The translations under genes were made by a program, and so were the position numbers. From Squalus acanthias (Eukaryota): a DNA stretch of 64,000 nt. How positions within the stretch are numbered: position 1 is the first letter of the stretch; each line of letters begins with the position of its first letter. Under the pieces are notes generated by a model. That model ran no database searches, was not told the origin of the DNA, and saw only the letters and a program-made list of their open reading frames with translations. The DNA is taken from positions 248,001 through 312,000 of the forward strand of contig JASTWF010000327.1 in the NCBI GenBank assembly GCA_030390025.1, in the 5' to 3' direction. This document shows, in pieces, positions 10,286 to 60,066 of this stretch.

Positions 10286-10289
10286 ACCT

Positions 10290-16490: not shown

Positions 16491-16982
16491 AGTTCACTTG
16501 CTCCGTGTGTGGGAAGGGATTCACTCAGTGATCCCACTTGGTGAGACACCAGCGTATTAACACTGATCGGAGCCTGTTTGTTCTCACTGTGTGAAGAGGT
16601 TTACAAACTCATCCCACCTGATGAGGCCCCTGCATATTCACACTGGGGAGAGGCCGTTCACCTGCTCCGGGTGTGGGAAGGGATTTAACCAGTCCTCTCA
16701 CCTGCTGACACACCAGCGAGTTCACACTGGGGAGAGGCTGTTCACCTGCTCCGGGTGTGGGAAGGGATTCAACCAGTCCTCGCCCCTGCTGAGACACCAG
16801 CGAGTTCACACTGGGGGAGGCCGTTCACCTGCTCCGGGTGTGGGAAGGGATTTAACCAGTCCTCTTCCCTGCTGACACATCAGCGAGTTCACACGAGAGA
16901 GAAGTCATTTAAATGTTCCGTGTGTGAGAAGGGATTCATCCATTCATCCAACCTGCTGATAAACCAGCGAGTTCACATTTGA
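16491..16982 (+). pseudogene. C2H2 ZNF pseudogene (5'-truncated, ~6 finger remnants)
   Basis: [12 protein letters not shown] stop at ~16528, frameshifts between ORFs 16591 and 16755; family 3'UTR with AATAAA at ~17128. Confidence 0.85.
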
Positions 16983-17716
16983 CTGTTGGGGTTGGATTCT
17001 GCTGTTATTGCTGCTGTTAATCACATCCCGAACTGAATCGTGTTCATTCTGACAGTTGGGGTTTGTTTCTGCTGATGTTAAACTCCAGCCCAGTTACAGG
17101 GGTTATTAATATTCTGGATATCTGTCAAATAAATCAAAGGGTGAAAGGTTAGAGTCACTCTTGTCCCTGAAAGGGGGGTAAAAATCCTGCTGATTGTGTT
17201 TCCCTCCAGTGGAGTTTATTGTTACTTTTGCCAAATAATCTTTAAAGGGATTTCCCAAATACTGACAACTGTCTCAAATGGAGCTAAAATCTGTGCAGGT
17301 TTTGGGGCAATAATGTTCAGAGATGAACATGTTTTAACATAAAATGGTTAAAATACATTGAATTAAATGTCTGATAGAATGGGCATTGTGGGAGAGAGAA
17401 GTTTAGTCTGAGTTAGAAACTCAAACAGGAGCTTCACTGCAGACAGGTCACCATGGCAACACTGATAAGACATTCCATTCCACTGAATCCACTGGGTGGA
17501 AACTGTAATCAGATCAGGGGAAAGAACAGGGTTTGTCTGTTTAAAAACCACAATATAAGCTTAAACCACAGTGAGTAATAGAATAGATCAGATTATAACG
17601 TGTGATGTTCATACCTATAACTCTGAAACTGTAAAATAACATAATTAGCAGTAATTTAGAGATAAAGAGAAAATTACTGAAGAAAAGTAACTGCCTTGAA
17701 CCAGGGAAAGTGTCCT

Positions 17717-18104
17717 TGTAAACCACAGATTAGAGAAGTTCCAGCTGTCTTTCCCTCGCTTCCTGCCAAAACCCAGCAGAGAAGACAAAGAAGAGTCAGG
17801 TGCCAGAGATGGATCACTACAGGGTATAAAAGTGAGCGGATCCTGATGTAAGGGGGCAGTCGGGACTGGAGACACCGGAGATCAAGCTCAGGGCGCCTGA
17901 GGTTCCACCCAGCGGGCTGACCTCGTGTAAGTTACTGTGGACACGCGGGACTTGCAAGTTTACTCTGATTGATGGATCAATGTAAGGTACGGTAGAGGAC
18001 AGAGAATCTGCTCATCTTATATTTCTAATAAGGTATTAAAGTTGTTGACACGAGACTCTCGAACCTGCTAATGAATAAGACAAGGCATCAGCTAGAATCT
18101 TACA
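17717..18104 (+). mobile_element. Putative solo LTR
   Basis: TGTAA...TTACA termini, TATAAAA at ~17825, ATTAAA at ~18035; almost wholly absent from paralog at ~10276-10290; no convincing 4-6 bp TSD. Confidence 0.5.
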
Positions 18105-18371
18105 CCTCTTTCCTGTTCTGTTCCTCTAATCCTTTTAAGCTTTTACCATTTAATGTAGATTTCCTACTTTTTTCTTCCTCCCAAAATGCATCACCTCATA
18201 ATTCTCTGCATTAAATTTCAGCTGACATCTCCCTGCCCCATTTACTAACCTGTGTATTCACACTGAAGTCACTTACAGTCCTCTTCACAGTTGGCCAGGG
18301 TCCCTATTTTGGTCTCATCTGAAGATTTTGATCTTGTGCCTCACATACCCAAGCCCAGATCATTTCTCTGA

Positions 18372-18866
18372 GATGATTCACTTGGTTAATTCCAGAGATG
18401 AGGGTTTTGACTTATGAGGAAAGGTTGAGCAGGTTGGGCCTATACTCATTGGAATTTAGAAGAATGAGAGGTGATCTTATCGAAACACATAAGATACTGA
18501 GGGGGCTCGACAGGGTAGATGCAGAGAGGATGTTTCCCCTCATGGGGAAATCTAGAACTCGGGGGCACGGTCTCAGAATAAAGGGTCGCCCTTTTAGAAC
18601 TGAGATGAGGAGGAACTTCTTCTCTCAGAGGGTCGTAAATTTGTGTAATTCTCTGCCCCAGAGAGCTGTGGAGGCTGGGTCATTAAATACATTTAAAGTA
18701 GAGATAGACAAATTTTTGCAAGATAAGGGAGTGAAGGGTTGGTTATGGGGAGCGGGCTGGGAAGTGGCTTTGAGCCCGAGATCAGCCATGATCTTATTGA
18801 ATGGGGGAGCAGGCTTGAGGGGCCAAGTGGCCTATTCTTGCTCCTATTTCTTATGTTCGTATGTTC
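18372..18866 (+). mobile_element. CR1 3' fragment inserted in older CR1 remnant
   Basis: ORF 18398 YEERLSRLGLYSLEFRRMRGDLIE; ttcttatgttcgtatgttc tail. Confidence 0.88.
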
Positions 18867-19109: not shown

Positions 19110-19293
19110 GTTTCAGCCAATGAGGGAGATCCGGGCTCAGCCCCGCCCACTGTGTGCCGCAAGCCCCGCCCCTCACACACTCCGATTGGTTGGAGGACCA
19201 GCCGCCCGCTCGGTCCTCCAGTCCCGCACCGCTCTTCCTATTGGTCCGCAGCTCCCGTCAATCACCCGGGCAGTGTGAGCTGAGCATGCGCGG
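19110..19293 (+). promoter_or_regulatory. CpG-rich ZNF promoter module P1 (CCAAT boxes, GC boxes, NRF1-like site)
   Basis: ccccgccc x2, ATTGG at 19185 and 19240, gcatgcgc at 19284; homologs at 42291-42424 (+) and 54450-54560 (-). Confidence 0.7.
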
Positions 19294-20286: not shown

Positions 20287-21609
<1,323 letters not shown>

Positions 21610-22158
21610 CTGCAGTGGTTAGATTCTGATGTTTTTGCAGCTGTTAATTACATCCTGGACCGAATCGTGTTCATTCTGACAGTTGGGGTTTGTTTCTGCT
21701 GATAAACTCCAGCCCAGTTACAGGGGTTATTAATATTCTGGATATATGTCAAATAAATCAGTTTGCTTTAAACACATTGTGGTGGATTTTTGTCGTTCCC
21801 ACCTGAGTGTTTAGCATCACCTGGTTGGAGCTCAGAAAGGACAATCTGGGGGAGGATCGTACGGCGGGAACAGAACTACAGCCTGGACACAGTCCTTCAG
21901 GGCCACACTGAGAGGGGCAAACGGCACTTTGGTCTTTCTCGTCTCTCTTCACTGAAACCAAAGTCGCCGTGCGGGTTAATCTTGAGGCCTGTAATGTCCA
22001 GATGATTTCCACCCAAGGGTGTGTAAAGAGATCGGACGGGTGCTCTGTGAGCCCCTTGCTCGTGTCTTCAGCTCAGTAGAGTCAGGGATTGCTCCCTGAG
22101 ATTGGAAGGTAGCTCACGTAGTTCCCATTTTCCAAATTGGGGACAAATCAGAGTCTGG

Positions 22159-24202: not shown

Positions 24203-24838
24203 GGTATTAGAAGGGGAGGATCTGCAGATGGAAACTGAATCCAAACATTGCGTCAAGATCTGACAGATTCACCGGATTCATCAGGACCTGAATATCATCG
24301 GCCTTTGGCTATAGGAGGAAAAAAACACCAATCACAGCGGGGAGAAACAGGACACGTGTTCTGTGCCTGGATCCACTTTTAACAAATCGTCTAGCCTGTG
24401 AGATTCGTGCACCCACCTGAATCAACAGTGTAAATGTGGGGAATGTGGGAATGGATTCAGTTGCCCGTCTGAGGTGCAAACTCATCGAAACAGTCACACC
24501 GGGGAGAGGCTGTTCACCAGCTGAGTGTGGAAAGAGATTCACTCGCTCATCTCACCTATTCCCACACTAACATGTTCATAACGGGGAGAATCCGTTCACT
24601 GCTCTGTATGTGGAAAGTGATTCAATCGATCATCCCATTTACTGACACACCAGCACAGTCACACCGGAGAGAGACCGTTTAGATACTTCACGTGTGGGAA
24701 GGGATTGACTCCGTTGTCCCACCTGTTGACACTCCAGAGTGTCCACATGGAGAACAGTTGCTGTAAATACTCTGACTGCGAGAAAAGCTTTCAAAGTTCA
24801 AAGCAGCTGATGAACGATCAGCGCATTGATACTGGAGA
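24203..24838 (+). pseudogene. Heavily degraded ZNF pseudogene; 3' end resumes at ~28135-28225 after CR1 insertions
   Basis: Family exon start ggtattagaaggggaggat, decayed HTGERPF/CGKGF repeats with stops; paralogous fragment at ~34175-34255. Confidence 0.75.
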
Positions 24839-27800
24839 GTGGATGTAACTGGTAGAATTGATAAGGGAGAACCAGTGGATGTGGTGTATTTGGACTTTCA
24901 GAAGGCTTTCAACAAGGTCCCGCATAAGAGATTGGCATGCAAAGTTAAAGCACATGGGATTGGGGTTAAGGTACTGTCTTGGATAGAGAACTGGTTGGCA
25001 GACAGGAAGCAAAGAGTTGGAATAAACGGGTCTTTTTCCGAGTGGCAGGCGGTGACTAGTGGGGTACCGCAGGGATCGGTGCTAGGACCCCAGCTATTCA
25101 CAATATGTATTAAATGGCGTAAAAATAAAAAAGGGAAGGTGGCTCAACCATGGCTAACAAGGGAAATCAGGGATAGTATTAAAACCAAGGAAGTTGCATA
25201 CAAATTGGCCAGAAGTAGCAGCAAACCCGGGGACTGGGAGAACTTCAAAACTCAGCAGAGGAGGACGAAGGGTTTGATTAGGGCAGGGAAAATAAAATAT
25301 GAAAGGAAGCTTGCAGAGAACATTAAAATGGACTGCAAAAGCTTCTATAAATATGTAAAAAGAAAGAGGTTAGTAAAAACAAACGTAGGTCCCCTGCAGT
25401 CAGAAACAGGGGAAGTCGTAATGGGGAACAAGGAAATGGCAGATCAATTGAACAAGTACTTTGGTTCGGTGTTTACTGTGGAGGACACACACAACCTGCC
25501 GGAAATAAAAGGGGTCAGAGGATCTGGTAAGAGGGAGGAGCTGAGGGAAATCCTTATTAGTCGGGAAAAGGTATTGGGGAAATTGATGGGACTGAAGGCT
25601 GAAAAATCCCCGGGGCCTGATGGTCTGCATCCCAGAGTACTTAAGGAGGTGGCCTTGGAAATAGTGGATGCATTGACGATCATTTTCCAACATTCCTTAG
25701 ACTCTGGATCAGTTCCGATGGAGTGGAGGGTGGCCAATGTAACCCCTCTTTTTAAAAAAGGAGGGAGGGAGAAAGCAGGGAATTATAGACCGGTCAGCCT
25801 GACATCGGTCGTGGGTAAAATGATGGAAGCAATTATTAAAGATGTCATAACAGACCATTTGGAAAGTGGCGACATGATAGGTCCAAGTCAGCATGGATTT
25901 GTGAAAGGGAAATCATGCTTGACAAATCTTCTGGAATTTTTTGAGGATGTTTCCAATAGGGTGGACAGGGGGGAACCAGTAGATGTGGTGTATTTGGACT
26001 TTCAGAAGGCCTTCGACAAGGTCCCACACAAGAGATTGGTGAGCAAAGTTAAAGCACATGGGATTGGGGGTAATGTGTTGACGTGGATTGAGAACTGGTT
26101 GGCACACAGGAAACAAAGAGTAGGAGTAAATGGGTACTTTTCAGAATGGCAGGCAGTGACCAGCGGGGTACCGCAGGGTTCGGTGCTGGGACCCCAGCTG
26201 TTTACATTATATATTAATGATTTGGACGAAGGGATTAAATGTAATATCTCCAAATTTGCGGATGACACTAAATTGGGAGGCAGTGTGAACAATGAGGAGG
26301 ATGCTAGGAGGCTACAGAGTGACTTGGACAGGTTGGGTGAATGGGCAAATGTATGGCAGATGAAGTACAATGTGGATAAATGTGAGGTTATCCACTTTGG
26401 TGGTAAAAATAGAGAGGCGGACTATTACCTGAATGGTGGCAGATTAGGGAAAGGGGACGTGCAACGAGACCTGGGCGTCATGGTACATCAGTCACTGAAG
26501 GTGGGAATGCAAGTGCAGCAGGCAGTCAAGAAAGCAAACGGAATGATGGCCTTCATAGCAAGGGGATTTGAGTACAGGAGTAGGGAGGTGATGCTACAGT
26601 TGTACAGGGCCTTGGTGAGGCCACACCTGGAGTATTGTGCGCAGTTTTGGTCTCCTAACTTAAGGAAGGACATTCTTGCTATTGAGGGAGTGCAGCGAAG
26701 GTTCACTAGATTGATTCCTGGGATGGCCGGACTGACATATCAAGAAAGATTGGGTCAACTGAACTTGTATCCTCTGGAGTTCAGAAGAATGAGGGGGGAT
26801 CTTATAGAGACATTTAAAATCCTGACTGGTTTAGACAAATTAGATGCGGGCAGAATGTTCCCAATGGTAGGGAAAACTAGAACCAGGGGTCACAGTCTAA
26901 GGATTAAGGGGAAGCCATTTAGGACTGAGCTGAGGAGGAACTTCTTCACCCAGAGAGTGGTGAATCTATGGAATTCTCTTCCACAGAAGGTTGTTGAGGC
27001 CAGTTCGCTAAATATATTCAAAAGGGAGTTAGATATAACACTCACAACTAAGGGGATCAAGGGGTATGGCGAGAAAGCAGGAATGGGGTACTGAGGTAGC
27101 ATGTTCAGCCATGAACGCATTGAATGGCGGTGCAGGCTCGAAGGACCGAATGGTCTACTCCTGTACCTATTTTCTATGTTTCTAATCATTTAGACGAGGG
27201 AACTAGATGTAATATCTCCAAGTTTTCAGATGACACAAAGCTGGGTGGGCGAGTGTGCTGTGAGGAGGATGTAGAGAAAATCCAGTATGATTTGGACAGT
27301 TTGGGTGAGTGGGCAAATGCGTGGCAGATGCAGTATAATGTGGATAAATGTGAGGTTATCCACTTTGGTGGCAAAAACAGGAAGGCGGATTATTATCTGA
27401 ACGGCAATAGATTGAGAAAAGGGGAGGTGCACCAGTCGCTGAAGGTAAGCATGCAGGTGCAGCAGGCAGTTAAGAAGGCAAATGGTATGTCGGCCTTCAG
27501 AACAAGAGGATTCGAGTACAGGAACAAGGATGTCTTGCTACAGTTGTACAGGGCCTTGGTGAGACCACACCTTGAGTATTGTGTGCAGTTTTGGTCGCCT
27601 TATCTGAGGAAGGATGTTCTTGCCATGGAGGGAGTGCAGCGAAGATTCATCAGACTGATACCTGGGATGGCAGGGATGATGTATGAAGAGAGATTGGGTC
27701 GATTAGGCTTATATTCGCTGGAGTTTAGAAGAATGAGAGGGGATCTCATTGAAACTTATAAAATTCTAACAGGACTAGACAGACTAGATGCAGGAAGGAT

Positions 27801-28132: not shown

Positions 28133-28304
28133 TCAATATCCTGTGTGTGGGACTCCAGTGAGATCACATGTGACTGCAGGGGTTTGGAATCTGTTATTAA
28201 TCACATCCAGGACTGAACCATGGCAGAATGCCCGTGCACTGTGGTTTATGTGTGAATTATTGATAAATATTTTCTCAATCGGATCACAGAAACTCATTCT
28301 CCAT

Positions 28305-28666
28305 TCACTAATTGGGACTTTCAATGGACGGGTTGCTCCCCAGCATGCCCCGCGGGGGAGAATGTGCCCTATTCACACTGGAGGAGCCCAGTGCGCAGGC
28401 GCTGAGCCCGCCTTTATTCGGAGTATGCGCAGTGTCACTGTGATCAGAGCGGGGCGAGTGCAGGGAACGGACAAAGGTCGGAGATGAGATTTTACGCCGA
28501 TTACGGATCGGCGGGGCGCAGAGAGGTAACGCACCCGGCGGGTGAGCTTCATAAACACCTGGTGTAGGCCGCAAGCCCCGAATGAGAACCTGCAGGTTCC
28601 CCGTTTGCAACTCCCGGGCTCTTTCCCGGGAACAGGATCGGGTTAACTGCGGCCATCTTTGTAAAG
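28305..28666 (+). promoter_or_regulatory. CpG-rich promoter/first-exon module P2 (NRF1-like, YY1-like)
   Basis: tgcgcaggcgc, atgcgcag, gcggccatcttt; possible donor gag|gtaacg ~28525; homolog 48605-48950. Confidence 0.55.
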
Positions 28667-28684
28667 GGAAGCTGAGAGTTTGTG

Positions 28685-29912: not shown

Positions 29913-29916
29913 ATGC

Positions 29917-31188: not shown

Positions 31189-32226
31189 ATGGAAGCAGAA
31201 AGCACCGTTCAGAGTGGAGAGAAACCGTACACGTGTTCTGTGTGTGGACGAGGCTTCAGCCGATCCTCTGACTTGTCGAGACACAAGCGCAGTCACACTG
31301 GGGAGAAACCGTGTAAATGTGGGGACTGTGGGAAGCGATTCCACTACCCGTGTGAGCTGGAAATTCATCGACGAGTTCACACCGGGGAGAGGCCGTTCAC
31401 CTGCACTGTGTGTGGGAAGGGATTCACTCAGTCATGCAATCTGCTGCAGCACTGGCGAGTTCACACTGACGAGAGACCTGTTGAATGTCAGGACTGCGGG
31501 AAGTGCTATAAAAGTTCCGGGGAACTGACACACCATCAATGTGTTCACACTGACGAGAGACCGTTCAGGTGCTCTCACTGCGGGACTGGGTTCGGGCGAT
31601 CATCTGACCTCACTGTACACCAGCGCACACACACCGGGGAGAGGCCGTTCATCTGCTCTGAGTGTGGGAAGGGATTCAGTCAGTCATCCCACCTGCTAAT
31701 GCACCAGCGAGTTCACACTGGGGAGAGACCATTCACCTGCTCAGAATGTGGGAAGGGATTTACTCGTTCATCCCACCTGCTGACACACCAGCGAGTTCAC
31801 ACTGGGGAGAGGCCGTTCACATGCTCCGTGTGTGGGAAGGGATTCACTGATTCATCCAACCTGCTGAAACACCAGCGAGTTCACACTGGGGAGAGGCCAT
31901 TCACCTGCTCCGAGTGTGGGAAGGGATTCACTGATTCATCCAACCTGCTGCTACACCAGAGAGTTCACACTGGGGAGAGGCCGTTCACCTGTTCCGTGTG
32001 TGGGAAGGAATTCACTCAGTCATCCCACCTGCTGAAACACCAGCGAGTTCACACTGGGGAGAGGCCGTTCACCTGCACCGTGTGTGGGAAGGGATTCACT
32101 CAGTCATCCAGCCTGCTGACACACCAGCGAATTCACACCGGGGAGAGGCCGTTCACCTGCTCCAAGTGTGGGAAGGGATTCACTCAGTCATCCCACCTGC
32201 TGAAACACCAGCGAGTTCACAAGTGA
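31189..32226 (+). CDS. C2H2 zinc-finger protein, 12 fingers (345 aa from ATG 31189)
   Basis: Uninterrupted CxxC..HxxxH fingers with TGERPF linkers; exon begins ~31096; AATAAA ~32373. Confidence 0.88.
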
Positions 32227-39724: not shown

Positions 39725-40315
39725 TCACATGTGAACTCGCTGGTGTCTCAGCAGGTTAGATGATAGACTGAATCCCTTCCCACAAACAGAGCAGGTGAAC
39801 GGCCTCTCCCCAGTGTGAGTGCGTTGGTGTGTCAGCAGATCCTTTGTGCTTTTAAAGCTCTTCTCACAGTCAGAACATTTAAAAGGTCTCTTATCAGTGT
39901 GAACAAGCTGGTGTCTCAACAGGTTGGATGAATTAGTGAATCCCTTCCCACACACTGAGCAGGTGAACGGCCTCTCCCCAGTGTGAACTCGTTGGTGTGT
40001 CAGCATATCCTTTGTGCTTTTAAATCTCATCTCACAATTATTACAGTTAAAAGGTCTCTTATCAGAGTGAACAAGCTGGTGTGTCAACTGGTTGGATGAA
40101 TGAGCAAATCCTTTCCCACACACGGAGCAGACAAATGGCCTCTCCCCAGTGTGAATTCGCTGGTGTGTCAGCAGGGTGGATGAACCATTGAATCCCTTCC
40201 CACACTCGGAGCAGGTGAACGGCCTCTCCCCGGTGTGACTGCGTCGATGTTTTTCCAGCTGGTATGGGTAATTGAATCCCTTCCCACAGTCCCCACATTT
40301 CCACGGTTTCTCCAT
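39725..40315 (-). CDS. C2H2 zinc-finger protein, 7 fingers from MEKPWK start (frame open upstream to 40480 with 2 further finger-like units)
   Basis: ORF 39725-40480; first ATG 40315; acceptor ttttacag|g, exon starts 40678; AATAAA ~39590 (-). Confidence 0.82.
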   Translation of the reverse strand: MEKPWKCGDCGKGFNYPYQLEKHRRSHTGERPFTCSECGKGFNGSSTLLTHQRIHTGERPFVCSVCGKGFAHSSNQLTHQLVHSDKRPFNCNNCEMRFKSTKDMLTHQRVHTGERPFTCSVCGKGFTNSSNLLRHQLVHTDKRPFKCSDCEKSFKSTKDLLTHQRTHTGERPFTCSVCGKGFSLSSNLLRHQRVHM

Positions 40316-41439
40316 GGTGCGGGTGTCCTTGTGTCTCTCCAGGTTGGATGATCTGTTGAAGCCTCGTCCACACACAGAACATGTGTACGGTTTCTCCCCG
40401 CTGTGAATGGTGCGATGTTTTTTCAGGCTGTGTAACTGGTTAAAGCTCTTTCCACAGTCAGTGCACTGGAACACTCTCACTCGGGTGTGTGTGTCTCGGT
40501 GCTTTTCCAGTCACACTGATGTTTGAAATTTTTCCCACAGACAGAACAGACAAACATTTCTCCTTCCACATTCAAAGGCCGATGATATTCAGGTCCTGAT
40601 GAATCGAGTGACTCTGTCAGATCTTGTTGTGATGTTTGGTTTGAGTTTCCTGTCCGCAAATCCTCTCCTTCTAATACCCTGTAAAAGGAGTTTACAAAAG
40701 TCATCACTGTAAGTACAGGATAGAAATTCAGAACAGACAATTCTAGTTTCTATGGAACATTCTTTCCTCTCTTGTTCCCCAAAGCTGTAAATCCCCATCC
40801 CACACACTCTCCCTCCTCCCTGTGCTGAAATCCAAACCCATCGCACCATCTCCAACATTTTTCCTTTCAATCGACTTTTCTTCCTCCCCCTGAAGGTGTT
40901 GACTCTGATGGGTTCAGTTCTACACTCATGAGGGACTGGAAGCCAGCATCCTGCGGGGACCGGACTCTGTCATAAAATAATGGCTTCAGAAGAGAAATTG
41001 AAGAAACTATTTAAAAGGTGTGGTAGTGAAATGTTGGGCGGGTGCTCAGCATCTCACACACAGTGCAAGAGTAACACTCGACATGTGTGAAGCTGTTCAT
41101 TCCGTCCCTGATTTGGGCATCTCTTGAGCCGGCACTTCTTGTCCCATTGTACCGAGTTGGTGTAACAGGAGAGCCAGGGATCGGGGATATTGGACAGGAA
41201 GCACACAGCACGGACATTACACTGCAGGTGGGATGTGTGAAAGTGTTACAGTGAGGGTTTCGGGCACTTTATTAAACACACACACAGCAGAAGCACATTA
41301 ATCTGATGGGAGATCACTGAGAGTCCGGCCCCTGTCCAGCCAGTATTTACAGGAGCTGGGTCACAGAGAGAGTCTCATTAAAATCACTGATATATTTGTT
41401 CACACAAACCAACTCCCAAAAAATGCTGAATGATTTCTC

Positions 41440-42130: not shown

Positions 42131-42563
42131 GTGGAGGCGGATAATGTTCACTGATCTCATAATGGGGCCTGGGGCCGCGTCCCCCGGGGTTTATTAACCC
42201 GCTCCCTGAGCTCTCTCACCTGATGTGTCAGCGGCTGCTGCCAAGGTCCGCGCATGCTCAGCTCACCTTCTGTTGTTCAGGTTTAAAGGTCAAGCCGCGC
42301 CCCTCACACACTCCGATTGGTTGGAGGACCCGCCGCCCGCTCGGTCCTCCAGCCCAGCCCCACTCTTCCTATTGGTCCGGAGCTCCCGTCAATCACCCGG
42401 GCAGTGTGAGCTGAGCATGCGCGGACCTTGGCAGCAGCCGCTGACACATCAGGTGAGAGAGCTCAGGGAGCGGGTTAATAAACCCCGGGGGGACGCGGGC
42501 TGCACACACCCCGAGTGCGGCCCCAGGCCCCATTATTAAAACACTCAACATTATCCGCTTCAC
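42131..42563. promoter_or_regulatory. Palindromic bidirectional promoter (P1 core between inverted arms)
   Basis: 42175-42266 is the reverse complement of 42406-42498 (one indel); each arm has gcgcatgc and cag|gtgaga donor. Confidence 0.75.
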
Positions 42564-42789
42564 AAACACCCGGGGTGGGCCTCAGGCCCCGAACAACAGC
42601 CTCCGGGCCGGGCCTTTGCCCCGAGCGGGGCGGCAGCTGCGGGGCTTTCTCCCGGTGACAGGCCCGGGTTAACGGCCGCCATCTTGAGAGGCGCATGCGC
42701 GGCCCCCTTGGCCAGGAACCAGGAGGAGAGAATCTTGTCAATTTCTATCCTGGACTCACAGTCATGGCTTTTGGAAACTCCTTTTACAG

Positions 42790-43735
42790 GCTGTGAGAAG
42801 GGCAGCATTTACACACCGCAAACTCACACCAAACATCACATCAAGATCTGACAGAGTCACTCCATTCATCAGGACCCGAATATCATCGGCCTTTGAATGT
42901 GGAAGGAGAAATGTTTGTCTCTTCTGTCTGTGGGAAAAGATTTCAAACATCAGTGTGACTGGAAAAGCACCAAGACACACACACCCGAGTGAGAGTGTTG
43001 CAGTGCACTGACTGTGGAAAGAGCTTTAACCAGTTACACAGCCTGAAAAAACATCGCACCATTCACAGCGGGGAGAAACCGTACACGTGTTCTGAGGCTT
43101 CAACTAATCATCCACCCTGGAGAGATGTAAGGACACCCGCACAACGGAGAAGCCGTGGAAATGTAGGGACTGTGAGAAGGGATTCAGTTCCCCGTCAAAG
43201 CTGGAAACTCATCGACGCAGTCACACTGGGGAGAGGCCGTTCACCTGCTCCGTGTGTGGGAAGGGATTCAGTCAATCGTCCAACCTCACTGAACACCATC
43301 TTGTTCACACCAATAAGAGACCTTTTAAATGTTCTGACTGTGAGAAGAGCTTTAAAAGAACAAAGGATCTGCTGAGGCATCAACACACTCACACTGGGGA
43401 GAGGCCGTTCATCTGCTCCACGTGTGGGAAGGGATTTACTCAGTCATCCACCCTGGTCACACATCAGCAAGTTCACACTGGGGAGAGGCCTTTTATCTGC
43501 TCTGTGTGTGGGAAGAGATTCATTAGTTCTTCCCGTTTCATTGAAACACCAGCATGTTCACACTGGGGAGAGGCCGTTCACCTGCTCCGTTTGTGGGAAG
43601 ACATTCACTCGTTCACCCAATCTGCTGAGACACCAACGCACTCATACTGGGGAGAGGCCGTTCACCTGCTCCAAGTGTGGGAAGGGATTCACTCGGTCAT
43701 CCCACCTGCTGAGACACCAGTGAGTTCACAAGTGA
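42790..43735 (+). pseudogene. ZNF pseudogene (tandem copy 1)
   Basis: MEKPWK start mutated to ACG, deletion at ~43093, frameshift ~43538, CGA>TGA at 43721. Confidence 0.85.
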
Positions 43736-43802
43736 CTGCAGGGGTTGGATTCTGCTGTTTCTGCTGATGTTAATCACCCTCTAACTGGGCTGGAGTTTCA
43801 TT

Positions 43803-44772: not shown

Positions 44773-45718
44773 GCTGTGAGAAGGGCAGCATTTACACACC
44801 GCAAACTCACACCAAACATCACATCAAGATCTGACAGAGTCACTCCATTCATCAGGACCCGAATATCATCGGCCTTTGAATGTGGAAGGAGAAATGTTTG
44901 TCTCTTCTGTCTGTGGGAAAAGATTTCAAACATCAGTGTGACTGGAAAAGCACCAAGACACACACACCCGAGTGAGAGTGTTGCAGTGCACTGACTGTGG
45001 AAAGAGCTTTAACCAGTTACACAGCCTGAAAAAACATCGCACCATTCACAGCGGGGAGAAACCGTACACGTGTTCTGAGGCTTCAACTAATCATCCACCC
45101 TGGAGAGATGTAAGGACACCCGCACAACGGAGAAGCCGTGGAAATGTAGGGACTGTGAGAAGGGATTCAGTTCCCCGTCAAAGCTGGAAACTCATCGACG
45201 CAGTCACACTGGGGAGAGGCCGTTCACCTGCTCCGTGTGTGGGAAGGGATTCAGTCAATCGTCCAACCTCACTGAACACCATCTTGTTCACACCAATAAG
45301 AGACCTTTTAAATGTTCTGACTGTGAGAAGAGCTTTAAAAGAACAAAGGATCTGCTGAGGCATCAACACACTCACACTGGGGAGAGGCCGTTCATCTGCT
45401 CCACGTGTGGGAAGGGATTTACTCAGTCATCCACCCTGGTCACACATCAGCAAGTTCACACTGGGGAGAGGCCTTTTATCTGCTCTGTGTGTGGGAAGAG
45501 ATTCATTAGTTCTTCCCGTTTCATTGAAACACCAGCATGTTCACACTGGGGAGAGGCCGTTCACCTGCTCCGTTTGTGGGAAGACATTCACTCGTTCACC
45601 CAATCTGCTGAGACACCAACGCACTCATACTGGGGAGAGGCCGTTCACCTGCTCCAAGTGTGGGAAGGGATTCACTCGGTCATCCCACCTGCTGAGACAC
45701 CAGCGAGTTCACAAGTGA
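44773..45718 (+). pseudogene. ZNF pseudogene (tandem copy 2, offset 1983 bp)
   Basis: Near-identical to copy 1 with the same lesions except the 43721 stop. Confidence 0.85.
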
Positions 45719-45785
45719 CTGCAGGGGTTGGATTCTGCTGTTTCTGCTGATGTTAATCACCCTCTAACTGGGCTGGAGTTTCATT

Positions 45786-46510: not shown

Positions 46511-47102
46511 TATAACACCCGGGGTGGGCCTCAGGCCCCGAACAAGAGCCTCCGGGCCGGGCCTTTGCCCCGAGCGGGGTGGCAGCTGCGGGGCTTTCTC
46601 CCGGTGACAGGCCCGGGTTAACGGCCGCCATCTTGAGAGGCGCATGCGCGGCCCCCTTGGCCAGGAACCAGGAGGAGAGAATCTTGTCAATTTCTATCCT
46701 GGACTCACAGTCATGGCTTTTGGAAACTCCTTTTACAGGCTGTGAGAAGGGCAGCATTTACACACCGCAAACTCACACCAAACATCACATCAAGATCTGT
46801 CAGAGTCACTCCATTCATCAGGACCTGAATATCATCGGCCTTTGAATGTGGAAGGAGAAATGTTTGTCTCTTCTGTCTGTGGGAAAAGATTTCAAACATC
46901 AGTGTGACTGGAAAAGCACCGAGACACACACACCCGAGTGAGAGTGTTCCAGTGCACTGACTGTGGAAAGAGCTTTAACCAGTTACACAGCCTGAAAAAA
47001 CATCGCACCGTTCACAGCGGGGAGAAACCGTACACGTGTTCTGTGTGTGGATGAGGCTTCAACTGAACGTCCAACCTGGAGAGACACAAGGACACCTGCA
47101 CC

Positions 47103-47861
47103 ATGGAGAAACCATGGAAATGTGGGGACTGTGGGAAGGGATTCAGCTCCCCATCCCGGCTGGAAACTCATCGGCGCATTCACACCGGGGAGAAGCCGTT
47201 CACCTGCTCTGTGTGTGGGAAGGGATTCAGTCAGTCATCACACCTTCTGACACACCAGCGAATTCACTCTGGGGAGAGACCGTTCAGTTGCTCTCACTGC
47301 AGGAAGGGATTTGGGCAGTTATCGAACCTCACTGACCACCAGCGAGTTCACACTGGAGAGAGGCCATTCACCTGCATTGTGTGTGGAAAGGGATTTGCTC
47401 GATTAGCCAACCTCACTAAACACCAACTTGTTCACACTGAAAAGAGACCTTTCCAATGTTCTGAGTGTGAGAAGAGCTTTAAAAGCACAAGAGATCTGCT
47501 GACACACCAACACACTCACACTGGGGACAGGCCGTTCACCTGCTCTATTTGTGGGAAGGGATTTGCTAATTCATCCCACCTCTTGATACACCAGCGAGTT
47601 CACACTGGGGAGAGGCCGTTCACATGCTCTGTGTGTGGGAAGGGATTCACTGATTCATCCACCCTGCTGAGACACCAGCAAGTTCACACCGGGGAGAGGC
47701 CGTTCACCTGCTCCGTGTGTGGGAAGGGATTCATTCAGTCATCCCACCTGCTGAATCATCAGCGAGTTCACACTGGGAAGAGGCCGTTCTCCTGCTCCGA
47801 GTGTGGGAAGAGATTCACTCGGTCCTCCCACCTGCTGAAACACCAGCGAGTTCAGAAGTGA
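47103..47861 (+). CDS. C2H2 zinc-finger protein, 8 canonical fingers + 1 terminal finger lacking last His
   Basis: ATG in accATGg context, 252 aa open; exon starts 46739; AATAAA ~48008. Confidence 0.88.
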
Positions 47862-48603: not shown

Positions 48604-48604
48604 C

Positions 48605-48950
48605 ATTCACTAATCTGGTCTTTCACTGGCGGGGCTTTTACCCAGCATACCCCGCGGTGGGGAATGTGCCGCACCCAGACTACAGGAGCCCAATGCGCAG
48701 GCGCGGTACCGGGCTGTGTTTGGAGCATGCGCAGTGCGTGGACTGGAGAAGGACAGAGCCTGGTCACGGGCTCCTTGCAGCGCGTAATAGACGGCAGGGC
48801 TGAGCGGAGTAATGGACCGGCAAGTGGGCGGGGAGGGTTCATAAACAACTGGTGTAGGCTGCAAGCCCCGAATATTACCCTGAAGGTCCCGCGTTTGCAG
48901 TTCCGGGGCTTCTCCCGGTCACAGGCCCAGACTAACGGCCGCCATCTTGA
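48605..48950 (+). promoter_or_regulatory. Promoter module P2, second copy
   Basis: tgcgcaggcgc, gcatgcgca, YY1-type gccgccatcttg ~48938; aligns to 28305-28666. Confidence 0.55.
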
Positions 48951-48967
48951 TTCAACTCCCGGTGTAG

Positions 48968-49107
48968 GCGAGAGGCCCAGCTGCCAGTGCGGAGGGGCCG
49001 GGGCGATAGCGAGAGGCCCAGCTGCCAGTGCGGAGGGGCCGGGGCGATAGCGAGAGGCCCAGCTGCCAGTGCGGAGGGGCCGGGGCGATAGCGAGAGGCC
49101 CAGCTGC
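48968..49107. repeat. 41-bp GC-rich tandem repeat, ~3.4 copies
   Basis: gcgagaggcccagctgccagtgcggaggggccggggcgata. Confidence 0.9.
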
Positions 49108-49882
49108 TCGTGGGGAACTCCAGCGCGGAGGGGCCGGGGCGTAGGGCCCAGTGTGGAAGATCCAGAGGAGAGTGGCCTGAGCGGGAGACCCAGCACGGAG
49201 AGCCCCAGGCGGGGGACTCAGGGTGGAGTGGCTGGTCGGCAGAGGTGGAGTCGGGAGATGCGGTTGCTGAGCATTGCTGCACTGGTTCTAAAAGTTGCAG
49301 AATGGTCGCGGGCCTGAATGAGTTCCAGCGGCGCAGCATGTGCTCTGTCCGGCGGCAGCTGTGAGGCTTTTTCTTGGCCATGGGACTGGTTTATGCGTCA
49401 CCATATTGGTGGAGGAAAGACAAACTGTTTCCATCTGTAACCCTCTGATTTCTGTTTTGTAGCCAGCTTTCCAACAATTCTGCTGCCTGGCCCTTCACTC
49501 CACACGGCCTGACCTTGGTCATCTTGTCGATCGTACAAACTGTTATGGATAGCAAGCTGGTTACAGAACAGGAAACAGAGAGTAGGGGCTGGGAGTAGCT
49601 ACTCAGACTGACAATAGGTGGGAAGTGGTGTTCCACAGGGATCGGTGCTGGGATCACTGTTGTTCACCATTTACAGAAACGATTTGGACTCGGGAATCGA
49701 ATTAAAAAATTTGTCGATGACACCAAATTGGGAGGTAGAGTTAATACTGAGGAAGACAAAATGCAAGAAGACATTAATAAATTTCAGAATGTGCGTGTAA
49801 TTGGCAAATGAATTTCACTAGATCAGTGTGAGGTGGTGTGTTTTGGTGGGAAGAATAAGGAGGCCACTCACTACTTGGACAA

Positions 49883-51104: not shown

Positions 51105-51974
51105 TCACTTGTGAACTTGCTGGTGTCTCAGCAGGTGGGATGAACGAGCGAATCCCTTCCCACATACGGAGCAGGTGAACGGCCTCTCCCCAGTGTGAGT
51201 GCGCTGGTGTACAGTGAGGTCAGATGAGTGCCTGAACCCAATCCCGCAGTGAGAGCACCTGAACGGTCTCTCCCCGGTGTGAACATGTTGATGGTACGTC
51301 AGTTCCCAGGAACTTTTATAGCACTTCCCGCATTCCGGACATTTAAAAGGTCTCTCATCAGTGTGAACTCGCTGGTGATTCAACAGGTTGGATGACTGAG
51401 TGAATCCTTTCCCACACTCGGAACAGGTGAACGGCCTCTCTCCAGTGTGAACTCGCTGGTGTCTCAGTAGGTGGGATGAATTAGTGAATCCCTTCCCACA
51501 CTCAGAGCAGGTGAACGGCCTCTCCCCACTGTGAACATGCTGGTGTCTCAGCAGTTTGGAGGACAAAGCGAATCCTTTCCCACACTCGAAGCAGGTGAAC
51601 GGCCACTCCCCAGTGTGTAGGTGTTGGTGTCTCTTCAGCTCCCCGGGGTTTTTAAAGCTCTTCCCACAGTCAGAACACTGAAATGGTCTCTCGTCAGTGT
51701 GAACTCGCTGGTGTGTTTCCAGGTGGGATGGATAAACAAATCCCTTCCCACACACGGAGCAGGTGAACGGACTGTCCCTGGTGTGACTGCGCCGTTGAAC
51801 TTCTATTGCAGACGGGGAACTGAATCCCTTCCCACCGTCCCCACCTTTACCCGGTTTCTCCCCGGTGTGACGGTGCACGTGTCTCGCCAGGGCAGGCGAT
51901 CGGCTGAATCCGCGTCCACACACCGAACACGTGTGCGGTTTGTCATCGCTGCAATCGCTGCTTTCTCCTTCCAT
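51105..51974 (-). CDS. C2H2 zinc-finger protein, 9 canonical + 1 degenerate finger (289 aa from ATG 51974)
   Basis: ORF 51105-52235; acceptor tttacag|g, exon starts 52083. Confidence 0.87.
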
Positions 51975-52329
51975 GTGCAAAGGCCGATGATGTTCAGGTC
52001 CGGATGAATCGAGCGACTCTGTCAGATCTTGACGTGTTGTTTGGTCTGAGCTTCCCACCTGTAACTGCTCCACTTCTATAACCCTGTAAATTGAGATCAG
52101 AAAAGGATCAGAGACAAACTGTTGTTTAATTTTCCCCTTTCCGAACCTAGGGGCAGTGAAGCTGATTTTCAGGCTCCAGCTGCTGCACAGGTTGGTTGAA
52201 AGGATCAGCAGTAATGGCGGCTGCAATACCCACAAGCCCCGGCGCTCCAGAAAGTGCTCTGTTGACGCTGAGTCCCGCCCATGTGCTCATGGCCCCCGCG
52301 CTCTCCCTCCTGCTCCACAATCGCCCGTC

Positions 52330-52500
52330 CCGATCGGTCCACAACGCGCATGCTCAGCGCACAAAACCCCGCGGTTGGAACATCGGGCGCGCATGCGGAG
52401 CCGCAACATCTGGTACGTGTGCGCGGCTCAGGTGGGGGCGAGTCGGTGTTTCGCCTCAGCCGCCAGGGAGGTGCGCATGCGCAGGACGACCCAACATTCT
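52330..52500. promoter_or_regulatory. CpG-rich NRF1-site cluster upstream of the minus-strand ZNF
   Basis: Perfect TGCGCATGCGCA at 52472-52483 plus gcgcatgc at ~52347 and ~52389. Confidence 0.5.
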
Positions 52501-54449: not shown

Positions 54450-54560
54450 GCCCGGGCTGATTGACGGGAGCTTCTGACCAATAGGGAGCGAGCGGGGCGG
54501 GGCTGGAGGACCGAGCCGGCGGCGGGTCCTCCAACCAATCGGGGAGCCCGAGGGGCGGGA
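54450..54560 (-). promoter_or_regulatory. Promoter module P1, inverted copy within CpG island 54085-54640
   Basis: Reverse complement aligns to 19160-19270; CCAAT at ~54478 and ~54535. Confidence 0.65.
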
Positions 54561-54709
54561 CTAGCGCCGGCTGATTGTCTGATCCGCGGGGCAGCGAGTT
54601 TCTCCAGTCCCTTGTTCAGGGCCCGGGGCTAGGGGAGGCTGTGGGCCTTTATTCCCCTTATTGGACACAAGGCTCTTTGTCTCACAACACACTGGCTCAA
54701 GGTTTTAAT

Positions 54710-55612
54710 TGAGAGGTCGCACAACACCAGGTTATAGTCCAACAGTTTTATTTGAAATCACAAGCTTTCGGAGCTATCGATTGCTCCTTCCTCAGGTGAA
54801 GTAAATTAGATACAGAATCGCCAAAGCATATATAGATAGAGAACAAAGCATGTGTACTTTACAATTGCAGGCCAATAAATTAAATCATCCTGACTATCTG
54901 CCGAGGTGTGATAAAGTTAATTAAGTCAGCCAGGAAGGTACCACATCAAAGACATAGCAAGATACAACTGAGACAATGAGGTGTAGTCGCAGGGGTTCTA
55001 ACGTGTCAAAAGCTGCCGTCTGTATGTAAAACGAAAAGCTTTAAAAATATTTTACTTTTTTACTGGGAAAATTTTTACTTTTTTACTGGGAATCACATCT
55101 GTGAACAAGCTAACGACGACTCGAGTCCGGATCACGTCATGTATCGTGACATAAACCCAAGATCCCGATTGAGACCGTCTTCATGAGTGCGGAACTTGGC
55201 TATCAGTTTCTGCTTGATGATTTTGCGTTGTCGTGTGTTTCTAAGGTTGCCTTGGAGAACGCTTACCCGCAGATCCGAGGCTGAATGTCCTTGACTGCTG
55301 AAGTGTTCCCCGACTGGGAGGTAACAATCCTGCCTGGCGATTGTTGCGCGGTGCTCGTTCATACGTTGTCTCAGTGTCTGCATGGTCTCGCCGATGTACC
55401 ATGCCGCGGTGCATTTGTAATTGTAAAGTACACATGCTTTGTTTTCTATCTATATATGCTTTGGCGATTCTGTATCTAATTTACTTCACCTGAGGAAGGA
55501 GCAATCGATAGCTCCGAAAGCTTGTGATTTCAAATAAAACTGTTGGACTATAACCTGGTGTTGTGCGACCTCTCAATTTTGTCCACCCCAGTCCAACACC
55601 GGCATCTCCGCA
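54710..55612 (-). mobile_element. Penelope-like element with inverted pseudo-LTRs and TSD
   Basis: GIY-YIG C-terminal ORF 55132-55383; ~54707-54868 inverted at ~55415-55577; tcaaggttttaat at 54697 and 55613. Confidence 0.88.
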
Positions 55613-55697
55613 TCAAGGTTTTAATACAGACTTTTTAAATTCATGAATAAAAGCAGATAAACCCCGTGCTTCTGTGGAACAAACTTTCTAATATTTT

Positions 55698-56945: not shown

Positions 56946-57652
56946 CAGAATCAGAGCGGCCGGGCCCGGCGGACGTGCGGCCAGGGCCCCGGCACCAGGA
57001 AACCCAGGGTGCAGCGCCTCCCCCATCCGAGCTGCCGCTTCCCGGTTTCTTCAGCCGGTTCCACCGAGTCCGACTCGGGACAAAGGACAGGAGCCAGGCT
57101 CCCAGAATAGCCCGCGGCCCCGAGCTCAGCGGGGAAATCAGCGCGTTGGATAGAGCGGTTTCTGGGGCATGGGGGATTATGGGTGCTGTGGCCGCCATTA
57201 GTCAGCGGCTGTCGGGAAGAGTTTTATTGCAGGCTGACGGAAGGTAGGTCCCTGACCGCCTATGTAGGTCTTTTTGTTGCTTCAGTTTGAGCTGGAGTGG
57301 AGATGGAGGAGGAGCTGCTGGGTTTAACCCCCAGTACTTCTGAGCCCAGGAGGACCCAACAATTTCCAATGTGAGACTGTCAAGGGAGGTGGATTCTGGG
57401 GGAGATTAGGTTGTTAAACAGACACTGTCCCTACAATGTAAAAGAATATTGTTTTAGGAACAAGTATTTCTGTACAGGCTTTTAATCCAGTTTACATATG
57501 TAGAATTTTAAAAATTCATTCTTAGGCTGTGGGTGTCACTCACAAGAGCAGCAAATATTGCTAATCTCCAGTTGCCCGTTGAGAAGGTGGTGGTGAGTCA
57601 CTTTCTTGAACTGCTGCAGTCCGTGTGGTGAAGGTACTCCCACAATGTTGTT

Positions 57653-58603
57653 AGAACATAGAACAGTACAGCACAGTACAGGCCCTTCGGCCCTCAATGT
57701 TGTGCCGAGCATTGTCCGAGACCAAGATCAAGCTGTCACACTCCCTATCACTCTGGTGTGCTCCATGTGCTTATCCAATAACCGCTTGAAAGTTCCTAAA
57801 GTGTCCGACTCCACTATCACAGCAGGCAGTCCATTCCACACCCCAACCACTCTCTGAGTAAAGAATCTACCTCGGACATCCCTTCTATATCTCCCCCCAT
57901 GCACCTTATAGTTATGCCCCCTTGTAACAGCTGCCTCTACCCGAGGAAATATTCTCTGAACATCCACTCTATCTATCCCCCTCATCATCTTATAAACCTC
58001 TATTAAGTCGCCTCTCATCCTCCTCCGCTCTAAAGAGAAAAGCCCCAACTCCCTCAATCTTTCCTCATAAGACCTCCCCCCCAAACCAGGCAGCATCCTG
58101 GTAAATCTCCTTTGCACTCTTTCCAATGCTTCCACGTCCTTCCTATAGTGAGGTGACCAGAACTGCACACAATATTCCAAATGTGGTCTCACCAAGGTCC
58201 TGTACAGTTGCAGCATAACCTCACGGTTCTTAAACTCAAACCCTCTGTTAATAAACGCCAACACACCATAGGCCTTCTTTACTGCTCTATCCACTTGAGT
58301 GGCAACCTTCAGAGATCTGTGGATATGAACCCCCAGATCCCTCTGCTCCTCCACGTTCCTCAGAACCCTGCCGTTGACCCTGTAATCCTTATTCAAATTT
58401 GCCCTACCAAAATGAATCACCTCGCACTTATCAGGGTTAAATTCCATCTGCCATTTTTCAGCCCAGCTCTGCATCCTATCAATGTCTCTTTGCAGCCTAC
58501 AACTGCCCTCCACCTCATCCACTACTCCACCAATCTTGGTGTCATCAGCAAATTTACTGATCCACCCTTCAGTCCCCTCCTCCAAGTCATTGATAAAAAT
58601 CAT
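57653..58603 (-). mobile_element. Young CR1 3' fragment in ZNF intron
   Basis: ORF 57728-58726, same subfamily as 14518-15557. Confidence 0.92.
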
Positions 58604-59196
58604 ATATATTCGGTAAGGAGTTCCAGGATTTTGACCCAGCAACGATGAAGGAATGACTATATATATCTGAGTCAGGATGGTGTGTGACATCGAGGGGAAC
58701 TTCGGGATGATGGTGCTCCCATGCAACAGCTGCCCTTGTCCTTCCAGGTGGTGGATGTTGCGGGTTTGGGATGTTCTGTCAAAGTTCTGGTTGAGTTGCA
58801 GATGTATAAAGTTCCTCTCCTTCGCCCCCTCCCCCCCGTCCCACTCCCACCTCTCTCTCCTCCCATAGAGGCCAGAGTCATGTGTAGGCCCAGACCAGGT
58901 GGCTGATTCCCTTCCCTGAGGGACATCAGTGAACCAGTTGGGTTTTTACGACAATCCGGCAGCTTTCATGGTCACTTTTTTCTAGTGCCGGCCCCACAAA
59001 TGACCAGATTCATTCAGCTCAATTTCACAACCTGCCTTTGTTTTCTTGTGGGTTCTCTCTCACGCTCCCTGTTTTAAATTTATTTTACAGGGTATTAGAA
59101 GGGGAGGATTTACAGACGGTAAGCTCAAACCAAACATCACATCAAGATCCGACAGTCACTCGACTCATCGGATCTGAATATCACCGGCCTCTGAAC

Positions 59197-60066
59197 ATGG
59201 AAGCAAAAAGCACCGTTCACAGCGGGGAGAAACCGTACACGTGTTCTGTGTGTGGACGAGGCTTCAGCCAATCCTCTGGCCTATCGAGACACAAGCGCAT
59301 TCACACCGGGGAGAGGCCATTCACCTGCTCTGTGTGTGGGAAGAGATTCATTCACTCATCCGACCTTCAGACACACCAGAGAGTTCACACTGGGGAGAGA
59401 CCGTTCACCTGCTCTGTGTGTGGGAAGGGATTCACTCAGTCATCCACCCTGCTGAATCACCAGCGAGTTCACACTGATGAGAGACCTTTTAAATGCCCGG
59501 ACTGCGGGAAGTGCTATAAAAGTTCCGGGGAACTGACATGCCATCAACATGTTCACACTGGAGAGAGACCGTTCAGGTGCTCTCACTGCGGGACTGGGTT
59601 CAGGCGATCATCTGAACTCACTGTCCACCAGCGCACTCACACTGGGGAGAGGCCATTCAGGTGCTCTCACTGCGGGACTGGGTTCAGGCGATCATCTGAA
59701 CTCACTGTACACCAGCGCACTCACACTGGGGAGAGGCCATTCAGGTGCTCTCACTGCGGGACTGGGTTCAGGCAGTCATCTGAACTCACTGTACACCAGC
59801 GAGCTCACACTGGGGAGAGGCCATTCAGGTGCTCTCACTGCGGGACTGGGTTCAGGCAGTCATCTGAACTCACTGTACACCAGCGCACCCACACTGGAGA
59901 GAGGCCGTTCACCTGCACCGTATGTGGGAAGGGATTCACTCGTTCATCCACCCTGCTGACACACCAGCAAGTTCACACTGGGGAGAGGCCGTTCACCTGC
60001 TCTGAGTGTGGGAAGGGATTCACTCGTTCATCCAGCCTGCTGAGACACCAGCGAGTTCACAAGTGA
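59197..60066 (+). CDS. C2H2 zinc-finger protein, 10 fingers (289 aa from ATG 59197; possible upstream coding exon 57179-57243)
   Basis: Acceptor ttttacag|g at 59090; open fingers; AATAAA ~60212. Confidence 0.88.

What the first reader, a model, noticed from the sequence alone, without database searches (positions are those of the whole stretch)
16491..60066. Modular cluster of effector-less C2H2 ZNF genes in rapid birth-and-death within TE-saturated DNA
Seen: ten finger arrays in both orientations share an exon-start sequence, a 3'UTR and two promoter modules, but differ in finger number and helix residues; no KRAB/SCAN/BTB exon is recognisable. Established: tetrapod KRAB-ZNF and cyprinid FiNZ-ZNF clusters evolve this way and are linked to TE repression. 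Inference: an independent chondrichthyan ZNF system, possibly TE-targeting, with a minimal or unknown effector region.
Basis: partly seen in the sequence, partly recalled or inferred. Interest (0 to 1): 0.7.

Follow-up and report, generated by a model that had tools for sequence, protein, structure and literature searches.

The report
Shark finger-only zinc-finger gene cluster
This stretch, likely from a shark, holds ten duplicated zinc-finger genes, half of them broken, whose predicted proteins are little more than DNA-gripping fingers with no known silencing domain; their DNA-reading residues change faster than neutral, so they likely track fast-changing repeat DNA such as transposons, but their targets are untested.

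Summary
Largely confirmed. There are ten C2H2 arrays (8 on +, 2 on -): five have intact ORFs of 7-12 fingers and five are broken. Nine share the exon-2 start and nine the 3' end; the promoter modules are patchier than claimed. No effector domain was found in 206 upstream frames. Contigs from other species' runs (RNA status guessed) join a short exon 1 straight onto the finger exon. In subfamily E/F/G/H a shared in-frame TGA, also implied in sawshark and horn shark models, cuts off any upstream domain and leaves three dead fingers as 5'UTR. For B/D/I/J a short N-terminal peptide is not excluded. Across 47 fingers, dN/dS is 0.04 in the zinc core and 1.8 at helix contacts (LRT 13); none of 78 null simulations reached this. 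Paralogues are chimeras. Targets and TE repression are untested. This is a lineage-specific poly-ZF expansion of a known kind. Shark ZNF numbers are already tabulated (Wells 2023 supplement), but my nine searches found no description of the finger-only layout. This scan noted the same family on other DNA about 20 times.

The parts
16491..17136 (+). Array A: 5'-truncated, frameshifted pseudogene with the family 3'UTR and AATAAA (17128)
19160..19293 (+). Double-CCAAT promoter-like module with NRF1-like GCATGCGC (factor names recalled), upstream of B
   Evidence: CpG o/e 0.70
20295..21775 (+). Array B, exon 2 to 3'UTR; ORF from ATG 20389 broken after finger 1 by an insertion at about 20517-20950 (SINE-like, label recalled); 8 further fingers
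24203..24850 (+). Array C: heavily decayed pseudogene, altered acceptor, 3' end lost
28165..28222 (+). Eleventh remnant: family stop/3'UTR start only
28300..28680 (+). CpG-island exon-1-like module (YY1-like variant), candidate promoter of D (inferred)
31189..32226 (+). Gene D CDS, 345 aa, 12 fingers, intact; exon 2 starts at 31095/31096 (acceptor AG shifted one base)
39725..40315 (-). Gene E CDS, 196 aa, 7 fingers, starts MEKPWKC, intact
40316..40678 (-). E 5'UTR in exon 2: leader plus three dead fingers, 1-nt deletion, shared TGA (about 40511-40513), three upstream ATGs
42220..42452 (.). Head-to-head promoter shared by E and F: two CCAAT boxes flanked by inverted copies of a short exon 1, each with a CAG|GTGAGA donor (last exon bases 42220 on -, 42452 on +)
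   Evidence: splice joint
42565..42789 (+). YY1-like/NRF1-like module and intron end before F; copies at 44531-44772 (G), 46514-46738 (H), and orphan at about 48600-48950
42790..43777 (+). Array F: dead-finger UTR (TGA 42956-42958), start ATG lost, frameshift, stop in last finger; pseudogene
44773..45760 (+). Array G: 99.5% tandem copy of the F unit; start ATG lost, same frameshift; pseudogene
46739..47102 (+). H 5'UTR in exon 2: leader with stop, three dead fingers with three in-frame stops, three upstream ATGs
47103..47861 (+). Gene H CDS, 252 aa, 9 fingers (last His replaced by Gln), starts MEKPWKC, intact
51105..51974 (-). Gene I CDS, 289 aa, 9 fingers plus one degenerate, intact; exon 2 starts at 52083; CpG island at 52200-52500
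54450..54566 (-). Third copy of the CCAAT module, in a CpG island 2.4 kb upstream of I
56950..57243 (+). CpG-island candidate exon 1 of J with AAG|GTAGGT donor; holds an ATG (57179) that would be in frame with the fingers if spliced here (untested)
59197..60066 (+). Gene J CDS, 289 aa, 10 fingers (four near-identical internal repeats), intact; exon 2 starts at 59091

Best explanation
This is a slice of a large family of two-exon zinc-finger genes, likely from a shark, whose predicted proteins are only tandem C2H2 fingers; the fingers' DNA-contact codons evolve faster than neutral while the zinc core is conserved, and the proteins likely recognise young transposon or other repeat DNA and would silence or block it through a partner bound by the fingers themselves. 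Steps: (1) Shown: a CpG-island promoter-like module, a short exon 1, one exon with leader, fingers and stop directly after the last finger, and a shared 3'UTR. (2) Shown for E/H: nothing upstream can be fused in frame. Inferred for D/I/J. (3) Shown: copies arise by tandem and inverted duplication, swap 5', finger and 3' blocks, and half die. (4) Shown by codon models: purifying selection on the scaffold and excess amino-acid change at helix -1 and +6. (5) Inferred by analogy: the selective agent is repeat DNA. (6) Speculative: a co-repressor is recruited by the conserved atypical fingers, or repression is steric.
For: Architecture. Splice: one contig of run X1 skips 337 nt with GT..AG ends, exactly from the predicted donor (42452) to the acceptor (42790). 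It is absent from X8, X11 and the large run X19 (kind not on record). In X8, 4 contigs run from the YY1-like module directly into the exon-2 start. In-frame stop: F, G and H carry it and E has the same TGA after a 1-nt deletion; 3 of 5 hits (two Pristiophorus, one Heterodontus) end at the same residue. The leader evolves like non-coding DNA: omega 0.74-0.92, LRT against 1 of 0.5 or less. 21 upstream segments of database models gave 3 matching pairs, none a known domain: two are intron-end translations and one is a short segment shared by two sawshark models. Selection in 47 fingers: omega 1.79 at contacts, 0.036 core, 0.27 linker, 0.66 other; LRT 13.2; -1 = 2.4, +6 = 3.1. It holds with CpG terms (LRT 11-13) and with a separate synonymous rate for the helix (LRT 8.0) or for the contact codons alone (LRT 5.1). 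0 of 78 null simulations (8 without and 70 with gene conversion) reached omega 1.78 or LRT 13; the maxima were 1.57 and 7.9. ZNF and retroelement counts correlate across metazoans and FiNZ-ZNFs repress TEs (PMC10547256, passages).
Against: No target was tested. The splice joint rests on one contig with only 26 letters on its short side, from another species, in a run whose RNA status is a guess. No RNA was laid on B/D/I/J exon 1. The leader frame is open into the fingers in B, D, I and J; J keeps it through compensating -2/-1 deletions, and J's best CpG-island donor gives an in-frame upstream ATG. The leader omega test has little power. E and H each have three upstream ATGs, one overlapping the main frame, so they may be poorly translated. 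The 20 atypical fingers alone give omega 1.36, not significant (LRT 1.7), and +2 and +3 are not individually above 1. The tree is of single 84-nt fingers from one window. Two earlier scan notes report contact residues conserved among young copies.
Confidence: 0.5

Rival explanations
1. The B/D/I/J subfamily carries a short, undescribed effector peptide encoded by exon 1 plus the acidic 31-36-codon leader, in the way the 28-aa FiNZ domain sits on a small upstream exon.
For: The leader is open in frame in B, D, I and J. Indels in it sum to multiples of three. J's CpG-island donor gives a 57-aa in-frame extension. A leader-like peptide precedes fingers in many shark and skate models.
Against: Leader omega is not below 1. 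D's acceptor is shifted by one base. F/G/H have a stop in the leader. No shared upstream peptide among 21 model segments. B's three candidate donors give no in-frame ATG, and no donor passed the cut-off for I.
Confidence: 0.15
2. The proteins are finger-only, but their changing targets are not transposons: satellites, host promoters, the ZNF genes themselves, or RNA.
For: Positive selection at contacts says nothing about the target. Wells 2023 notes KZNFs often bind non-TE sequence and fly ZAD-ZNFs do not target TEs. Cephalopod C2H2 expansions are neural in expression (PMC12513265, passages). Satellites make up 17% of the window.
Against: Vertebrate poly-ZF families with this evolutionary signature that have been tested (KRAB, FiNZ) repress TEs.
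Confidence: 0.25
3. The cluster is mostly passive: TE-driven ectopic recombination copies the cassette, most copies are functionless, and helix diversity comes from shuffling and mutation bias.
For: 5 of 10 arrays are broken. Block-wise chimerism. CR1 fragments bound the F/G duplication unit. Upstream ATGs in E and H.
Against: Core omega is 0.04 and all-neutral is rejected at LRT about 200. Zinc ligands are kept in 187 of 188 positions (partly by construction, since fingers were picked by pattern). CpG and conversion controls do not reproduce contact omega 1.8.
Confidence: 0.1

Closest known systems
Lineage-specific poly-ZF expansions under positive selection (Emerson and Thomas 2009, PMC2604467; passages read)
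   Same: Clustered tandem C2H2 genes with TGEKP-type linkers, recent duplication, and selection concentrated at helix -1, 3, 6.
   Different: Sharks are not covered ('shark' 0 occurrences). The paper leaves open whether genes without an N-terminal domain are truly finger-only or mis-annotated; here sequence and splice evidence favour finger-only, firmly for one subfamily.
Tetrapod/sarcopterygian KRAB-ZFP clusters (KRAB-TRIM28-SETDB1)
   Same: All fingers in one 3' exon, birth-and-death in TE-rich clusters, adaptive contact residues, head-to-head promoters (last point recalled).
   Different: No KRAB exon. In E/F/G/H fusion is blocked by a stop. KRAB families are reported as lost or absent in cartilaginous fishes (PMC8455134, passage).
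Cyprinid FiNZ-ZNFs (Wells et al. 2023, PMC10547256; passages, part 2 of 9 of the text, supplement rows) and ray-finned KRAB-like ZNFs (PMC11603059, passages)
   Same: Fish-lineage two-exon ZNF family, hundreds of copies, positive selection at contacts. The Wells supplement counts 3586 ZNF ORFs in S. canicula, 1851 in C. carcharias, 1223 in A. radiata and 475 in C. milii.
   Different: FiNZ exon 1 encodes a conserved 28-aa domain; here exon 1 of E/F is about 30 nt without ATG. TE repression was shown for FiNZ but is untested here. The main text never mentions sharks.
Cephalopod C2H2 expansions (PMC12513265, passages)
   Same: Large lineage-specific clustered expansion; the link to repeats is left open.
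   Different: Independent lineage, studied for neural expression; gene architecture not compared here.

Membership tests
Lineage-specific poly-C2H2 ZNF expansion | Three or more tandem canonical fingers with conserved linkers | tested here: met
   7-12 fingers in five intact ORFs
Lineage-specific poly-C2H2 ZNF expansion | Clustered recent duplicates and pseudogenes | tested here: met
   F/G unit 99.5% identical; 5 of 10 broken
Lineage-specific poly-C2H2 ZNF expansion | dN/dS above 1 at helix contact positions, purifying selection on scaffold | tested here: met
   omega 1.8 against 0.04; finger-level test on one window
Lineage-specific poly-C2H2 ZNF expansion | Hundreds of copies genome-wide | not testable with these tools
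   No genome held; counts for other sharks
KRAB-ZFP | KRAB-A domain on an upstream coding exon | tested here: not met
   0 of 206 upstream frames (no positive control); none of 17 chondrichthyan proteins among 120 listed hits carries PF01352; in-frame stop in E/F/G/H
KRAB-ZFP | TRIM28 recruitment and H3K9me3 at targets | not testable with these tools
   Needs experiment
SCAN- or BTB-ZNF | SCAN or BTB domain N-terminal to fingers | tested here: not met
FiNZ-ZNF / KRAB-like ZNF | Conserved short N-terminal domain on its own exon | tested here: inconclusive
   No FiNZ profile available. Excluded for E/F/G/H by the stop; no shared upstream peptide in 21 model segments; J has a possible 57-aa extension
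FiNZ-ZNF / KRAB-like ZNF | Expression at zygotic genome activation and TE derepression on knockdown | not testable with these tools
   Runs carry no tissue record

The most novel reading that the evidence does not exclude
Sharks and rays run a genome-wide repeat-surveillance system of thousands of finger-only proteins with no effector domain. Variable fingers read the target, conserved atypical fingers recruit the silencing machinery, and in one subfamily former fingers were turned into a conserved uORF-laden 5'UTR that throttles translation.
Probability: 0.2. Interest if true: 0.75.

Novelty: new variant of a known kind. Interest (0 to 1): 0.42.

Why it matters
Cartilaginous fishes carry up to thousands of ZNF ORFs but no reported KRAB-ZFP system. 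If these adaptive proteins are truly finger-only, ZNF-based repeat control needs no dedicated effector domain, which bears on what the ancestral vertebrate system looked like before KRAB and FiNZ. It also addresses the open point of Emerson and Thomas 2009 on domain-less poly-ZF genes. The evolutionary pattern itself is familiar, and function is untested.

Tried and rejected
No whole genome is held, so there is no genome-wide count. No RNA holder was listed on record; 18 runs are guessed RNA, and contig depths were not used as expression levels. One search (E-F region with fingers) showed no informative splice joint among the 15 rows displayed, with 208 hidden. Readthrough or selenocysteine at the shared TGA (helix +3 of the first dead finger) was considered and rejected: H has two more stops downstream, F/G have a 10-nt deletion and a stop, E has a frameshift before it, and the Carcharodon model P0004 ends in the third dead finger; pN/pS of the dead fingers is 0.6-0.8 on few changes. 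RNA structure in E's 5'UTR: none (z +1.43). Rfam: 0 matches. tRNA: 0. ESM Atlas on the leader and on J's exon-1 frame gave no usable hit, which shows nothing. Search with gene I's N-terminus returned 27 mostly generic ZNFs, one of them a shark. One search shows only the top five families for proteins with many hits, so it was used only for the 18 of 25 new proteins listed in full (no effector domain in them). The short/long branch split (omega 2.5 against 1.4) is biased because lengths include the contact sites; terminal and internal branches both give 1.8. Binding-motif prediction against TE consensus was not attempted: no validated predictor or shark TE library was at hand. Paper searches returned nothing; others returned no description of this family in their listings. 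PMC10380595 (passages) and PMC11620358 (abstract) added nothing decisive. Wells supplementary files 3-5 were not searched and may bear on sharks.
Full report
Observation. A six-frame scan finds C2H2 fingers in ten groups between 16.5 and 60.1 kb, eight on + and two on -. Translation of each finger exon shows five intact ORFs: D (345 aa, 12 fingers), E (196, 7), H (252, 9), I (289, 9 plus one degenerate) and J (289, 10). A and C are decayed. B is split by an insertion after finger 1. F and G have lost the start codon and carry a frameshift. A motif scan puts the same splice acceptor and exon start at 9 of 10 arrays (3 further hits unrelated) and the same stop and 3'UTR start at 9 of 10 plus an orphan remnant at 28165 (2 further hits unrelated). 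The promoter-like modules are real CpG islands (o/e 0.6-1.0 against 0.43 overall) but are not shared by all: a double-CCAAT module occurs three times, a YY1-like module five times counting one variant, and J has a third type (factor names recalled). About a third of the span is retroelement coding sequence, mostly CR1-like (RT, endonuclease and GDSL ORF1 hits; coverage, SINEs not counted).

Origin. All 5 hits to the shared leader are sharks. A profile search of 1.84 billion representatives gave 31 hits; 28 look like family members by inspection and 3 are unrelated repeats. Of 10 looked up, 8 are sharks and 2 are the unrelated ones. A skate protein is also a hit, but it was in the query alignment. 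The window is therefore likely chondrichthyan; no genome was available.

Gene layout. E and F sit head to head around two CCAAT boxes, each with an inverted copy of a short exon 1 ending in a strong donor. Laying four public runs from related organisms on 42070-43075 gave one contig in run X1 that skips 337 nt with GT..AG ends, exactly between the predicted donor and acceptor. It was not seen in X8, X11 or X19. Its short side is 26 letters and the RNA status of X1 is a guess. Four contigs of X8 run from the YY1-like module straight into the exon-2 start. So exon 1 is likely spliced directly to the finger exon. Every intact ORF ends at its last finger.

Is there an effector? Pfam finds none in 206 upstream sense-strand frames (one weak RT hit; no positive control). 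None of the 17 chondrichthyan proteins among the 120 listed of 789 long hits carries KRAB or SCAN, though most of these are chained automatic models. The firmer evidence is subfamily E/F/G/H. There the exon-2 leader runs into three dead fingers with a shared TGA at helix position +3 of the first, and the first in-frame ATG after it starts MEKPWKC. Two sawshark models and one horn shark model end at the same residue, so the stop is likely old. Further stops and frameshifts in each copy rule out readthrough. In B/D/I/J the leader is open for 31-36 codons. It evolves with omega 0.74-0.92, not different from 1 but with low power, and 21 upstream segments of database models share no domain. J's best CpG-island donor would, however, add 57 in-frame residues, so a short FiNZ-like peptide stays possible for this subfamily.

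Evolution. Among 47 fingers of the intact genes, entropy peaks at helix -2, -1, +3 and +6, and 43 signatures are distinct. A codon model on the finger tree gives omega 0.036 for zinc ligands and core, 0.27 for linkers, 0.66 for other sites and 1.79 for -1/2/3/6 (LRT 13.2 against 1; -1 2.4, +6 3.1; +2 and +3 not significant alone). The result survives CpG terms and local synonymous rates, with LRT falling to 5-8 in the strictest versions. None of 78 simulations with contact omega 1, 70 of them with gene conversion, reached it. The 27 generic fingers carry the signal (2.35); the 20 atypical fingers do not (1.36, not significant). Pseudogene fingers were left out of these fits. Paralogues are patchworks: I and J are 97.7% identical over 948 bases of 3' flank but only 57-80% over most of the exon; F and H are 97-100% identical for 500 bases and about 80% in the fingers; F and G are 99.5%.

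Mechanism. Shown: cassette duplication, block exchange, frequent death, purifying selection on the fold and excess change at DNA-contact positions. Inferred: finger-only proteins that read fast-changing repeat DNA, by analogy with KRAB and FiNZ families (PMC10547256). Speculative: repression through a partner bound by the conserved atypical fingers (finger-mediated recruitment is known for some ZNFs; recalled) or by steric blocking. I put the whole chain at 0.5, the finger-only layout at about 0.8 and adaptive change at about 0.85. E and H carry three upstream ATGs each, which may damp their translation.

Comparison and novelty. It works like a lineage-specific poly-ZF expansion (PMC2604467, passages) and meets the tested criteria. 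It is not a KRAB-, SCAN- or BTB-ZNF family. Wells 2023 tabulates shark ZNF ORF counts in its supplement but its text does not mention sharks. The whale shark paper notes KRAB families missing in cartilaginous fishes. PMC11603059 places the KRAB-ZNF ancestor in bony fishes. Nine paper searches showed no description of this finger-only layout; subscription journals are mostly not covered. The scan's own notes hold 20 findings with these words in at least 7 genomes; they are unchecked and not independent support, and two disagree with me on selection in young copies. Verdict: real, a new variant of a known kind, function open; interest 0.42.

Noticed in passing
window 40313-40571 (-) vs 46846-47105 (+): The dead-finger 5'UTR is 97% identical between E and H (251 of 259), more than their leader (86%), intron end (90%) or 3'UTR (89%). 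Constraint on the RNA/DNA or recent gene conversion; unexplained.
   Followed up: partly
window 2020-9784: 67-bp satellite, 116 copies, 89% matches.
   Followed up: no
window 10974-12065, 16061-16490, 36320-36848, 41441-41640, 41952-42059: The same 39-bp minisatellite at five places; one array abuts the truncated 5' end of array A.
   Followed up: no
window 60975-64000; 14516-14846; 58382-58602: CR1-like element with GDSL-esterase ORF1 and endonuclease running off the window end; fragments elsewhere are 98.5% identical to it, so the family is young. One copy interrupts J's intron.
   Followed up: partly
window 29339-29980, 54707-55615: Penelope-like fragments (label recalled; no Pfam hit), one flanked by a 163-bp inverted repeat at 98.8%.
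   Followed up: no
window 42565-46513: F and G units are 99.5% identical over 1966 bases: a very recent tandem duplication or an assembly artefact.
   Followed up: partly
P0001: A sawshark model fuses histone H2A to this family's exon-2 leader, suggesting ZNF cassettes lie among histone genes there.
   Followed up: no
13 of 18 Heterodontus hits list the same longest contig (59,489,666 bases) and 3 of 3 Carcharodon hits the same 20,355,162-base one, hinting at chromosome-scale clusters.
   Followed up: no
window 48550-49150: Orphan CpG-island exon-1 module with no finger exon downstream on +; it matches the start of sawshark model P0002.
   Followed up: partly
window 1275-2019 vs 38500-39050; 9785-10973 vs 17334-18368 and 35809-37621; 12298-13864 vs 34254-35814: Mosaic of non-ZNF repeated or duplicated blocks at 81-98% identity.
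   Followed up: no
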